From the NCBI GenBank assembly GCA_965204755.1, contig OZ242011.1, positions 1,088,001-1,152,000 of the forward strand: a DNA stretch of 64,000 nt. The letters run 5' to 3'. The translations under genes and the position numbers were made by a program. The DNA comes from Candidatus Marinacidobacterium sp. (GTDB lineage: Bacteria; Acidobacteriota; Vicinamibacteria; Marinacidobacterales; Marinacidobacteraceae). Shown here piece by piece: positions 25,238 through 29,322 of the stretch (positions within the stretch are counted from its first letter, which is position 1; each line of letters starts with the position of its first letter). The notes beneath the pieces were generated by a model. That model did not search any database, was not told the origin of the DNA, and saw only the letters and a program-made list of their open reading frames with translations.

Positions 25238-26056
25238 GTGACGGAGACGAGCACGAGTTTCGTCGGGCCGCTCGGCTCGACGATCCACCACCTGCGCGCG
25301 GACGCGGCGACCGTGGCCGCCCTCGCCGGGCTGGACTGGACCGAGGGGTTCCGGCGGGTATGCCTCGACCCGGTGCGGGGAGTGGTGGTCCTCATGACCC
25401 CTTCGCGCCTCCACGAGGGCCTGACCGGGGTCTTCGACGACATCGTGGACTACGCGGCGGACGCGCTGGGCCGCGCCTCGACCAAACTCCGGAGCGTTCG
25501 CCTGCGCGGAAAAGGGGAGCCCCCGGGCACCGGCATGGAACCGGACTGCTCCTTCTATGTGGGGGAGCGCGCCCGCGCCTACCTCGAGGCCCTGGCCGAG
25601 AGCGAGAGAGCGGCGGACGCCTTCCTCGAGGAGAACGGCCCGGACCTCGTCGTCGAAGTCGAGATCACCCACGCCGATGCGGGCAAGATCGATCGCTACG
25701 CCGACCTGGGCGCGCGGGAGTTCTGGCAACTGCGCGGCAAGCGCGGGGAGAAGACGCTCCGGGCGGACTTCCTGGCGCTCCGCCGGGGAGCAGCGCCGCG
25801 TCCGCTGGAGGCTTCGGAAGTCCTGCCGGGGCTCACTTCGTCCGATGTCTGTCAAGCGGTCGAAGGCGTTCGACGGAGCCCGAGCCTTCGCAAACGCATG
25901 GAGGCGGTGGCCCGCATCGTCCGGCGCCGGCAGCAGAAGAGCATCCGGCTGCGCGAGGAACGGACCCCCTACGGGGAGGCGCCGGCCGTCGGCGAGCCGG
26001 CCGGCCCCGCAGTCGGCGCCATCCCGCTCGAAGGCCTGAGCACCGAGGAGCCCTGA
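25238..26056 (+). CDS. Uma2-family (PD-(D/E)XK) endonuclease, copy 1
   Basis: [44 protein letters not shown] start with GGAGGAG RBS. Confidence 0.88.
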
Positions 26057-26874
26057 TGGCCGAGACGAGCACGAGTTTCGTCGGACCGCTGGGTTCGACG
26101 ATCTACCACCTCCGGGCGGACGCCGACACCGTGGCCGCCCTCGCCGGGCTCGACTGGACGAGCCGCTTCCGCCGCGTGTGGCTCGACCCGGTGGGAGGGA
26201 TCGTCGTCCTCATGTCCCCGTCGTCCCTCCACGAAGGCCTGACCGGAATCTTCGACGACATCGTGGACGCCGCGGCGGACGCGCTGGGCCGCGCCTCCGC
26301 CAAACTTCGGAGCGTTCGCCTGCGCGGGAAAGAGGCGCCGCCCGGCACGGGCGTGGAGCCGGACTGCTCCTTCTATGTGGGAGAACGCGCCCGCGCCTAT
26401 CTCGACGCCTTGGCCGAAAGCCAGAAAGCGGCGGACGCCTTCCTCGAGGAGAACGGCCCGGACCTCGTCGTCGAAGTCGAGATCACCCACGCCGACGAGG
26501 GCAAGATCGACCGGTACGCCGACCTGGGCGTGCGGGAGTTCTGGCAACTGCGCGGCAAGCGCGGAGAGAAGACGCTCCGGGCGGACTTCCTGGCGCTCCG
26601 CCGGGGAGCGGCGCCGCATCCGCTGGAAGTGTCCGAGGTCCTGCCGGGGCTCACTCCGTCCGATGTCTGCGAAGCGGTCGAAGGCGTTCGACGGAGCCCG
26701 GGCCTTCGCAAACGCATAGAGGCGGTCGCCCGCATCGTCCGGCGCCGTCAACAGCGGAGCATCCGGCTGCGCGAGGAACGGGCCCCCTACGGGGAGGCGC
26801 CGACCGTCGGCGAGCCGGCCGGTCCCGCAGTCGGCGCCATCCCGCTCGAGGGCCTGAGCACCGAAGACCCCTGA
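26056..26874 (+). CDS. Uma2-family endonuclease, copy 2
   Basis: Same motifs; TGATG coupling to copy 1. Confidence 0.88.
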   Translation: MAETSTSFVGPLGSTIYHLRADADTVAALAGLDWTSRFRRVWLDPVGGIVVLMSPSSLHEGLTGIFDDIVDAAADALGRASAKLRSVRLRGKEAPPGTGVEPDCSFYVGERARAYLDALAESQKAADAFLEENGPDLVVEVEITHADEGKIDRYADLGVREFWQLRGKRGEKTLRADFLALRRGAAPHPLEVSEVLPGLTPSDVCEAVEGVRRSPGLRKRIEAVARIVRRRQQRSIRLREERAPYGEAPTVGEPAGPAVGAIPLEGLSTEDP

Positions 26875-27695
26875 TGACCGGACTGAGCACGAGTTTCGTC
26901 GGACCGCTGGGTTCGACGATCTACCACCTCAAGGCGGACGCCGACACCGTGGCCGCCCTCGCCGGGCTGGACTGGACGAGCCGGTTCCGCCGCGTGTGGC
27001 TCGACCCGGTTGGAGGGATCGTCGTCCTCATGTCCCCGTCGCACCTCCACGAAGACCTGACCGGGGTGTTCGACGACATCGTGGACGCCGCGGCGAGCGT
27101 CCTGGGCCGCGCCTCGAAGAAACTCCGGAGCGTTCGGCTGCGCGGGAAAGGGGAGCCCCCGGGCACCGGCATGGAACCGGACTGCTCCTTCTATGTGGGG
27201 GAGCGCGCCCGCGCCTACCTCGAGGCCCTGGCCGAGAGCGAGAAGGCCGCGGACGCCTTCCTCGAAGAGAACGGCCCGGACCTGGTCGTCGAAGTCGAGA
27301 TCACCCACGCCGACGAGGGCAAGATCGACCGATACTCCGACCTGGGCGTCCGGGAGTTCTGGCAACTGCGCGGCAAGCGCGGGGAGAAGACGCTCCGGGC
27401 GGACTTCCTGGCGCTCCGCCGTGGAGCGGCGCCGCATCCGCTGGAGGCGTCGAAGGTTCTGCCGGGGCTCACTCCGTCCGATGTCTGCGAAGCCGTCGAA
27501 GGCGTCCGACGGAGCGGGGGCCGCCGCGAACGCACGGAGGCGGTGGCGAGCATCGTCCGTCGCCGTCAACAGCGGAGCATCCGGCTGCGCGAGGAACGAG
27601 CCCCCTACGGGGAGGCGCCGGCCGTCGGCGAGCCGGCCTGCGCCGCAGTCGGCGCCATCCCGCTCGAGGGGCTGAGCACCGAAGACCCCCGATGA
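26874..27695 (+). CDS. Uma2-family endonuclease, copy 3
   Basis: Same motifs; TGATG coupling. Confidence 0.88.
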   Translation: MTGLSTSFVGPLGSTIYHLKADADTVAALAGLDWTSRFRRVWLDPVGGIVVLMSPSHLHEDLTGVFDDIVDAAASVLGRASKKLRSVRLRGKGEPPGTGMEPDCSFYVGERARAYLEALAESEKAADAFLEENGPDLVVEVEITHADEGKIDRYSDLGVREFWQLRGKRGEKTLRADFLALRRGAAPHPLEASKVLPGLTPSDVCEAVEGVRRSGGRRERTEAVASIVRRRQQRSIRLREERAPYGEAPAVGEPACAAVGAIPLEGLSTEDPR

Positions 27696-28507
27696 CCGGA
27701 CTGAGCACGAGTTTCGTCGGACCGCTGGGTTCGACGATCTACCACCTCCGGGCGGACGCCGACACGGTGGCCGCCCTCGCCGGGCTCGACTGGACGAGCC
27801 GCTTCCGCCGCGTGTGGCTCGACCCGGTGGGAGGGATCGTCGTCCTCATGTCCCCGTCGTCCCTCCACGAAGGCCTGACCCGGGTCTTCGACGACATCGT
27901 GGCCGCCGCGGCGGACGCGCTGGGCCGCGCCTCGACCAAACTCGGGAGCGTTCGCCTGCGCGGGCAAGGGGCGCCCGGCACGGGCATGGAGCCGGACTGC
28001 TCCTTCTATGTGGGAGAACGCGCCCGCGCCTATCTCGGGGCGTTGGCCGAGAGCCAGGAGGCGGCGGACGCCTTCCTCGAGGAGAACGGCCCGGACCTCG
28101 TCGTCGAGGTCGAGATCACCCACGCCGACGAGGGCAAGATCGGCCGTTACTCCGACTTGGGCGTCCGGGAGTTCTGGCGTCTCCACGGCAAGCACGGAGA
28201 GAAGACGCTCCGGGCGGACTTCCTGGCGCTCCGCCGGGGAGCGCCGCCGCATCCGCTGGAGGCGTCGGAGGTCCTGCCGGGGCTCACTCCGTCCGATGTC
28301 TGCCAAGCCGTCGAGCGCGTCCGCCTGAGCCCCGACCATCGCGAACGGACGGAGGCGGTCGCCCGCATCGTCCGGCGCCGCCGGCAGCAGAGCATCCGGC
28401 TGCGCGAGGAACGGGCCCCCTACGGGGAGGCGCCGGCGGTCGGCGAGCCGGCCGGCGCCGCAGTCGGAGCCATCCCGTTCGAAGGCCTGAGCACCGAGGA
28501 CCCCTGA
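27692..28507 (+). CDS. Uma2-family endonuclease, copy 4
   Basis: Same motifs; ATGA overlap; one-codon deletion (GQGA-PGT). Confidence 0.88.
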   Translation: MTGLSTSFVGPLGSTIYHLRADADTVAALAGLDWTSRFRRVWLDPVGGIVVLMSPSSLHEGLTRVFDDIVAAAADALGRASTKLGSVRLRGQGAPGTGMEPDCSFYVGERARAYLGALAESQEAADAFLEENGPDLVVEVEITHADEGKIGRYSDLGVREFWRLHGKHGEKTLRADFLALRRGAPPHPLEASEVLPGLTPSDVCQAVERVRLSPDHRERTEAVARIVRRRRQQSIRLREERAPYGEAPAVGEPAGAAVGAIPFEGLSTEDP

Positions 28508-29322
28508 TGCCCGGATCGAGCACGAGTTTCGTCGGACCGCTGGGTTCGACGATCTACCACCTGCGCGCGGATACGGCGACCGTGGCCGCCCTCGCCGGTC
28601 TGGACTGGACGGAGGGGTTTCGGCGGGTGTGCCTCGACCCGGTGCGGGGAGTGGTGGTCCTCATGACCCCTTCGCGCCTCCACGAAGGCCTGACCGGGGT
28701 CTTCAACGACATCGTGGACGCCGCGGCCGACGCGCTGGGCCGCGCCTCGACCAAACTCGGGAGCGTTCGCCTGCGCGGGAAAGGGGATCCCCCGGGCACG
28801 GGTATGGAGCCGGACTGCTCCTTCTATGTGGGCGAACGGGCCCGCGCCTACCTCGAGGCCTCCGCCGAGAGCGAGAAGGCAGCGGACGCCTTCGTCGAGG
28901 AGAACGGCCCGGACCTCGTCGTCGAAGTCGAAATCACCCACGCCGACGAGGGCAAGATCGCCCGTTACGCCGACTTGGGCGTCCGGGAGTTCTGGCGCCT
29001 CCGCGGCAAGCACGGAGAGAAGACGCTCCGGGCGGATTTCCTGGCTCCGGACCGGGGAGCTGCACCGCATCGGTTGGAGGCGTCGGAAGTCCTGCCGGGG
29101 CTCACGCCGTCCGATGTCTGCCAAGCGGTCGAAGGCGTTCGACGAAGCCCGAGCCTTCGCAAACGCATGGAGGCGGTCGCCCGCATCGTCCGGCGCCGCC
29201 GCCAGCAGAGCATCCGGCTGCGCGAGGAACGGGCCCCCTACGGGGATGCGGCGGTCGGCGAGCCGGCCGGCGCCGCAGTCGGAGCCATCCCGCTCGAAGG
29301 CCTGAGCACCGAGGACCCCTGA
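28507..29322 (+). CDS. Uma2-family endonuclease, copy 5
   Basis: Same motifs; TGATG coupling; one-codon deletion in the tail. Confidence 0.88.
   Translation: MPGSSTSFVGPLGSTIYHLRADTATVAALAGLDWTEGFRRVCLDPVRGVVVLMTPSRLHEGLTGVFNDIVDAAADALGRASTKLGSVRLRGKGDPPGTGMEPDCSFYVGERARAYLEASAESEKAADAFVEENGPDLVVEVEITHADEGKIARYADLGVREFWRLRGKHGEKTLRADFLAPDRGAAPHRLEASEVLPGLTPSDVCQAVEGVRRSPSLRKRMEAVARIVRRRRQQSIRLREERAPYGDAAVGEPAGAAVGAIPLEGLSTEDP

What the first reader, a model, noticed from the sequence alone, without database searches (positions are those of the whole stretch)
25238..29322. Five-copy, translationally coupled, mosaic tandem array of Uma2 nucleases: a candidate recombination-diversified nuclease cassette
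Seen: five gene-sized units (818/818/818/815 bp periods), all intact and joined by TGATG or ATGA overlaps with no spacer. All keep the putative catalytic EPD..EVE and K..RY residues. Differences cluster in blocks with incongruent patterns. Block A is [24 protein letters not shown] (copies 1,5) versus WTSRFRRVWLDPVGGIVVLMSPS (2,3,4). KLRS (1-3) contrasts with KLGS (4,5), and WQLRGKR (1-3) with WRLxGKH (4,5). ESQ and SSLHE are shared by 2 and 4, and [10 protein letters not shown] by 1 and 3. The C-terminal block is SPSLRKRM (1,5), SPGLRKRI (2), SGGRRERT (3) or SPDHRERT (4). Copy 5 therefore matches copy 1 at both ends and copy 4 in the middle. Established: Uma2/DUF820 proteins have a restriction-endonuclease-like fold, are often expanded as dispersed paralogs, and have no settled function. 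Inference: unequal crossing-over and gene conversion shuffle sequence modules, many of them charge-changing, within one co-translated operon. This could give a combinatorial set of nuclease or DNA-binding specificities, or hetero-oligomers, for example in defence. This is my best candidate for an undescribed system here.
Basis: partly seen in the sequence, partly recalled or inferred. Interest (0 to 1): 0.85.

Follow-up and report, generated by a model that had tools for sequence, protein, structure and literature searches.

The report
Recombining five-gene Uma2 nuclease array
A sponge-associated bacterium carries five back-to-back copies of a nuclease-like gene of unknown function that really do swap segments, but the family is already known to form such cassettes and the swapped differences look tolerated rather than selected for new specificities.

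Summary
Observation confirmed. Five intact Uma2 (PF05685/COG4636) genes, 87-92% identical as DNA, are joined by TGATG/ATGA overlaps. They are mosaic (PHI p=1e-4). Copy-specific contigs sit at flank depth, which argues against mis-assembly.

The genome has two more loci of this subfamily, one ending in a frameshifted copy and one with an in-frame fusion. All form one species-level group, not found in 27 family relatives. Other assemblies carry new block combinations (9 of 59 proteins), so shuffling appears ongoing.

Selection is purifying (omega 0.13; no positive-selection class, p=0.67). Variable sites are those the wider family tolerates. No partner gene recurs beside relatives.

Best reading: birth-and-death plus gene conversion in a horizontally acquired, expansion-prone nuclease family. 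Its paralog cassettes were described in 2005 and 2009 (PMC551604, PMC2701414). This scan already noted recombining Uma2 arrays in two other genomes. A combinatorial defence cassette is not excluded but has no positive support.

The parts
25188..25237 (+). Leader shared by all three loci of this subfamily in the genome, with a GGAGGAG ribosome-binding site at 25226-25232
   Evidence: 87% (locus B) and 74% (locus C) identical to the other two leaders; sequence
25238..26056 (+). Uma2 copy 1 (272 aa, GTG start)
26056..26874 (+). Uma2 copy 2 (272 aa); H59, PD102-103, E140, E142, K150
26874..27695 (+). Uma2 copy 3 (273 aa)
27692..28507 (+). Uma2 copy 4 (271 aa)
28507..29322 (+). Uma2 copy 5 (271 aa)
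24190..25092 (+). Left flank: DUF4013 membrane protein, a conserved backbone gene, not part of the array
   Evidence: Pfam; present in 5 of 5 relatives searched
29344..29500 (+). Degenerate fragment homologous to three other genomic sites, one being the 3' end of the large autotransporter-like ORF upstream of the sister array
   Evidence: 74-82% DNA identity; 'autotransporter-like' is my reading of the ORF, not a family scan
29531..34170 (-). Right flank: Rad50/SMC-like ATPase and Mre11/SbcD-like phosphoesterase pair, convergent with the array
   Evidence: same position in same-genus genome G001, which lacks the array

Best explanation
A Uma2/COG4636 PD-(D/E)XK-fold gene of a clade shared among sponge-type symbionts entered this species once (inferred). 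It multiplied into 13 units at three loci (shown) and evolves by birth-and-death with gene conversion and unequal crossing-over. Copies 80-95% alike serve as templates for ordinary homologous recombination, which swaps tracts, changes array make-up between strains, and sometimes fuses, truncates or frameshifts a copy (mosaicism shown; mechanism inferred). Purifying selection keeps the fold and putative active site, so the proteins are probably made and act as metal-dependent nucleases or DNA binders with the same or similar activity (inferred, untested). The spacer-less coupling probably arose when the ORF extended through the duplicated leader up to the next start codon (suggestive only). Any benefit is more likely dosage or selfish persistence than a combinatorial code.
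For: PHI p=1e-4 and block-wise splits. Omega 0.13 and M1a vs M2a p=0.67; pairwise dN/dS 0.23-0.41. Species-level entropy tracks family-level entropy (rho 0.56); 57 array-variable sites have mean family entropy 1.33 against 0.65 for 179 invariant ones. H59, E60, P102, D103, E140, E142, K150, Y154 and W163 are invariant in 195 of 195 species-level proteins. The 12 genome copies tested form one side of a branch (SH-aLRT 100, quick tree). 0 of 27 family genomes carry the subfamily, and G001 has the empty site. Decay: frameshifted last copy of locus C and fused pair at locus B; truncated fusion alleles P0003 and P0238. A second Uma2 subfamily in the genome is also tandem. 66 of 76 related genome loci hold one copy and 10 of 76 hold 2-4. 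No recurring partner gene. Literature: cassettes of paralogous genes; four-gene tandem and selfish-spread hypothesis.
Against: Strong purifying selection on many copies across many assemblies is more than a neutral passenger needs. Copy types persist as recognisable alleles across 32 contig labels rather than being homogenised. Ten copies across the three loci give a weak positive-selection class (p=0.018; sites 164 and 217), though recombination inflates this test. The helix carrying H59 has the highest pN/pS (0.65) and multi-state sites 57, 61 and 64. A PADLOC phage-defence-candidate model, PDC-S17, matches weakly (E 2e-8 and 4e-10).
Confidence: 0.65

Rival explanations
1. Defence by dosage or redundancy: the protein is an orphan anti-phage or anti-plasmid nuclease, the operon raises its amount, and recombination is a side effect.
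For: Intact putative active site and purifying selection; coupled operon with a strong first RBS; weak PDC-S17 match, where PDC models are untested candidates from genes embedded in BREX, DISARM or RM systems. HipA-like, Fic-like and McrB-like genes each occur near 5 of about 110 related loci; these names are my reading of sequence starts, not family scans.
Against: Array A sits among housekeeping genes. No methyltransferase or antitoxin partner recurs. The Uma2/nuclease/phage/defense search from 2019 on listed 2 papers; the one I opened only co-expressed Uma2 as a CRISPR accessory gene.
Confidence: 0.2
2. Adaptive combinatorial cassette: block shuffling is selected because it creates new target specificities or hetero-oligomers, like immunity-gene arrays.
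For: Real and apparently ongoing shuffling: 9 of 59 array-A-type proteins from other assemblies fit two parents better by 5 or more residues, and one locus-C-type protein carries the copy-4 middle. Multi-state sites near H59; weak M2a signal in ten copies.
Against: Breakpoints are scattered (about residues 83, 124-131, 156, 190) and there is no conserved-scaffold, hypervariable-cassette layout. No recombinase or donor set lies nearby. Omega is 0.13. Variable sites are family-tolerated sites. Most relatives are solitary.
Confidence: 0.12
3. Assembly artefact: strain variants of fewer copies were stacked or chimerised.
For: No Logan contig spans the array. Short-read assemblers can make chimeric repeats, which could account for some of the population recombinants.
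Against: Copy-specific contigs, including the 2/3 junction, are at single-copy depth with 0 differences. Several types co-occur under one contig label in many other assemblies. Some variant alleles occur on 2-4 contigs, e.g. P0125 on 2 and P0143 on 4.
Confidence: 0.03

Closest known systems
Uma2 / COG4636 / DUF820 / TT1808 family (PF05685); Feder and Bujnicki 2005, PMC551604
   Same: PD-(D/E)XK fold with H-PD-EXX-K type site; patchy distribution, species-specific expansion after transfer, no recurring partner, occasional tandems including one run of four in Crocosphaera watsonii, disrupted copies.
   Different: A longer 270-aa clade found in Gammaproteobacteria and Vicinamibacterales MAGs. It has an extra N-terminal segment, a helical insertion at 109-132 and C-terminal helices. 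The site reads E-x-E plus K. Recombination and strain-level shuffling are measured here.
COG4636-COG4636 paralog cassettes; Makarova et al. 2009, PMC2701414
   Same: [quoted passage not shown]
   Different: They describe it as cyanobacterial and as a likely solo toxin. Here the host is a non-cyanobacterial, sponge-associated bacterium with five coupled copies.
PADLOC PDC-S17 (phage defence candidate)
   Same: Weak profile match over the Uma2 core.
   Different: Untested candidate; the match is 32-38 bits; this array is not embedded in a BREX, DISARM or RM locus.
Recombination-diversified tandem arrays such as staphylococcal esaG immunity genes (named in scan note e1-5087326; otherwise recalled, not read)
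   Same: Tandem paralogs that exchange segments and vary between strains.
   Different: Those have a known cognate toxin driving diversity. No cognate partner or positive selection was found here.

Membership tests
Uma2/COG4636 | Pfam PF05685 match | tested here: met
   5 of 5 hit, 4 of 5 above the cut-off; Atlas best cluster 90% Uma2, score 0.96
Uma2/COG4636 | PD-(D/E)XK fold like 1wdj and 3ot2 | tested here: met
   Model pLDDT 74; the top eight Foldseek hits are Uma2/DUF820 or restriction-endonuclease-like structures (9y1l, 1wdj, 6okh, 3ot2, 3ijm), prob 0.99-1.00, best E 5e-4
Uma2/COG4636 | H-PD-EXX-K site with displaced Lys | tested here: met
   H59, PD102-103, E140, K150 invariant in 195 of 195; K150 lies in the helix after the E140 strand
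Uma2/COG4636 | Nuclease activity (predicted for the family) | not testable with these tools
   Needs an assay
Uma2 paralog cassette | Adjacent co-oriented paralogs with no antitoxin or methyltransferase | tested here: met
Restriction-modification or type II TA system | Cognate methyltransferase or antitoxin beside the nuclease | tested here: not met
   Flanks are DUF4013 and a Rad50/Mre11-like pair; no recurring partner among neighbour clusters
Adaptive diversified cassette | Inter-copy recombination | tested here: met
Adaptive diversified cassette | Positive selection on variable segments | tested here: not met
   Five copies p=0.67; ten copies p=0.018 with 0.3% of sites, confounded by recombination
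Adaptive diversified cassette | Dedicated recombinase, donor cassettes or fixed crossover sites | tested here: not met
   None in the flanks; scattered breakpoints
Anti-phage system | Protection against phage | not testable with these tools
   Only a weak candidate-model match

The most novel reading that the evidence does not exclude
The three arrays form a genome-wide pool of interchangeable nuclease modules. Shuffling of the H59 helix face (57/61/64) and the 164 and 213-221 segments retunes substrate recognition, so each strain of the symbiont fields a different co-translated set of defence nucleases. This would give the first function for Uma2 expansions.
Probability: 0.12. Interest if true: 0.7.

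Novelty: new member of a known kind. Interest (0 to 1): 0.27.

Why it matters
Uma2 is a very large family with no settled function in the papers I found. This locus gives five natural variants plus about 180 related strain-level proteins with an invariant putative active site, a convenient panel for asking whether Uma2 cuts DNA and whether paralogs differ. It also shows the family's expansion habit in sponge-type symbionts across two phyla. As a system it is not new: paralog cassettes are in print, and gene conversion among near-identical neighbours is expected.

Tried and rejected
Homodimer prediction: no answer (score 0.18, mark 0.42); not used as evidence either way.

No RNA holder was listed among the sequencing runs; this says nothing on expression.

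Joints in the Logan contigs had sides of 20-22 bases and were disregarded.

Viral contigs: 14 pattern matches, none confirmed. PDB sequence search: nothing significant. NCBIfam: no model for the two copies scanned. The promoter scan found no sigma-70 site upstream on +. The paper search for 'PDC-S17' returned 0 papers, and the bioRxiv supplement that would define it is closed.

The careful tree did not finish; the quick tree was used and no donor is claimed.

Tail-derived-from-leader: in-register alignments end at the same GAGGAG, but p-values are uncorrected and mixed (leader A vs tail A1 p=0.007; 8 of 33 pairs below 0.05), so it stays suggestive.

A functional link to the Rad50/Mre11 pair was rejected: the pair is present in G001 without the array.

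Scan look-ups by sequence and by genome returned nothing.
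Full report
OBSERVATION. The five ORFs, their periods and the TGATG/ATGA junctions are as described. All hit Pfam Uma2, 4 of 5 above the cut-off. A model from a 62-sequence alignment (pLDDT 74; residues 238-267 largely disordered) matches Uma2/DUF820 and restriction-endonuclease-like structures. H59, PD102-103, E140, E142 and K150 fit the H-PD-EXX-K site that Feder and Bujnicki defined. Mosaicism exceeds chance: 63 informative sites fall in runs of incompatible splits, PHI-type p=1e-4 for all sites and for third positions, and tracts shared by copies 1/3 and 2/4 pass correction. 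In run X1, which has 0 differences in the flanks and may be the source sample, five listed copy-specific contigs have depth 235-257 against flank depths of 222 and 254. No contig spans the array and the table was cut. Of 17 runs holding part of the stretch, 6 are labelled sponge metagenome (2 at small share), 4 marine metagenome and 7 a coded organism, so the sponge habitat is likely, not proven.

GENOMIC SETTING. The genome holds 13 units of this subfamily at three loci. Besides this array there is a five-unit array at C1:3832.2-3836.2 kb whose fourth copy is the most diverged and whose fifth is frameshifted and truncated. The third locus, at 2968.1-2972.1 kb, has one free copy and an in-frame fused pair of 527 aa. 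The three share a leader with a GGAGGAG site. A second, unrelated Uma2 subfamily forms its own tandem sets of three and two, and relatives G006 and G014 each have 11 Uma2 matches, some adjacent. The subfamily was not found in 40 relatives by single protein or in 27 family genomes by profile. It was found in 3 of 400 genomes sampled across the phylum, where only 6 candidates per genome were scored. Same-genus genome G001 (87% complete) has DUF4013 followed by a short ORF and then the Rad50/Mre11-like pair, with no array. The array is thus an insertion in this species or a loss in G001; absence from the whole family favours insertion.

RELATIVES. Homologs at 57-67% identity occur in MAGs named Gammaproteobacteria and Vicinamibacterales/Acidobacteria, often several per genome (80 of 182 stretches kept). 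Within 8 kb, 66 of 76 loci have one copy and 10 of 76 have two to four. Those neighbours are 67-89% identical to each other, and none of the sets examined overlaps stop-to-start. Clustering of 1151 predicted neighbour genes shows transporters and metabolic genes, with no partner recurring across taxa. In a quick tree of 98 rows the 12 genome copies tested (frameshifted copy left out) form one side of a branch with support 100; no donor is claimed.

POPULATION. I looked up 20 of the closest clusters, with at most 15 members listed each, and used contig length as a label. After dropping proteins labelled with this genome, fragments under 240 aligned residues and one frameshifted half, 183 proteins under 97 labels remained. 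Among 59 array-A-type proteins under 32 labels, 9 fit two parents better than one by at least 5 residues, for example copy3/copy1 (P0141), 4/5 (P0156, P0154), 5/4 (P0253) and 2/5 (P0125). P0168 is a locus-C type with the copy-4 middle. The first-gene N-terminus never occurs twice under a label and sits on a copy-1 body in 3 cases and a copy-2-like body in 11. A tail that also never occurs twice sits on a copy-4 body in 5 and a copy-5 body in 9. A sixth type, absent from this genome, occurs under six labels. This implies that array make-up differs between strains, but gene order was not seen and assembly chimeras may explain some cases.

SELECTION. Pairwise dN/dS is 0.23-0.41, and no window exceeds 0.65. 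My codon-model script gives omega 0.13 with no positive class for the five copies (LRT 0.81, p=0.67). Ten copies give LRT 8.1 (p=0.018; 0.3% of sites; residues 164 and 217), a test known to be inflated by recombination (recalled). Sites that vary among the copies are those that vary among 51 distant homologs (p=2e-8); 8 of 90 family-conserved sites vary. Charge changes are slightly in excess for five copies (39 of 79, p=0.04) and not for twelve (101 of 247, p=0.29). Against my reading: the H59 helix has the highest ratio and three multi-state sites, copy types persist across assemblies, and PDC-S17 matches weakly. I could not map residues on coordinates.

MECHANISM. Shown: tandem expansion, mosaicism, purifying selection, decay and fusion at sister loci, and no partner gene. 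Inferred: a single acquisition, homologous recombination as the shuffler, and nuclease activity. The 31-residue disordered tail is longer than in most homologs (range 5-32) and aligns in register with the leader, ending at the same GAGGAG. The coupling may therefore be read-through of a duplicated leader; support is weak. I put birth-and-death with conversion at 0.65, defence by dosage at 0.20, an adaptive combinatorial cassette at 0.12 and artefact at 0.03.

COMPARISON WITH WHAT IS KNOWN. Feder and Bujnicki 2005 (PMC551604; parts 1-4 of 7 read) report species-specific expansions, no partner genes, tandem pairs and one run of four, and propose selfish, recombinogenic spread. Makarova et al. 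[quoted passage not shown] Steczkiewicz et al. 2012 (PMC3424549; one table passage; authorship recalled) note mobility and multiple transfers. The guilt-by-embedding preprint (10.1101/2024.01.29.577857; passages only; supplements closed, and they may define PDC-S17) describes PDC models as untested candidates. PMC11855584 (passages) lists Uma2 as a CRISPR accessory gene. Searches listed no paper on Uma2 arrays in sponge symbionts or on recombination within them; the library lacks most subscription papers. Two earlier scan notes describe recombining Uma2 arrays of seven and three copies in other genomes; I did not check them.

VERDICT. A real, well-supported recombining array and a new member of a known kind. 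Interest 0.27; the combinatorial-defence reading has probability about 0.12 and would merit 0.7.

Noticed in passing
G000:C1 at 357.9, 756.0, 1208.0, 1660.0, 2045.5, 2895.4, 2970.8, 3119.1 and 3494.2 kb (outside the window): Nine dispersed elements of 350-550 bp, each with two clusters of 4-8 direct copies of the AT-rich 12-mer AATTGTGTATAG at mostly about 20-bp spacing, separated by about 200 bp. One lies inside Uma2 locus B. They resemble iteron- or centromere-like protein-binding arrays; function unexplained.
   Followed up: partly
G000:C1:2968057-2969640 (-); proteins P0003, P0238: In-frame fusion of two Uma2 units (527 aa); other assemblies carry a version with most of the second unit deleted.
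   Followed up: partly
G000:C1:3148.3-3150.3 kb, 3648.1-3649.5 kb, 148.5 kb, 2969.9 kb: A second Uma2 subfamily, independently expanded, with tandem sets of three and two, one apparently frameshifted.
   Followed up: partly
window 29344-29500: Remnant homologous to the 3' end of the autotransporter-like gene directly upstream of sister array C and to two other sites, hinting at shared duplication history of arrays A and C.
   Followed up: partly
G000:C1:3836.3-3836.5 kb (-): Frameshifted fragment upstream of array C that resembles the N-terminus of MmeI-type restriction-modification enzymes (resemblance recalled, not tested).
   Followed up: no
window 29531-34170 (-): Rad50/SMC-like plus Mre11-like pair with lower GC (66-69%), in G001 but not in the stretches fetched from G004, G005, G006 and G014; weak PADLOC LmuB and mad3 matches.
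   Followed up: partly
G014:C1:3026.0-3028.9 kb (L184): The flanking DUF4013 gene is itself tandemly triplicated in this relative.
   Followed up: no
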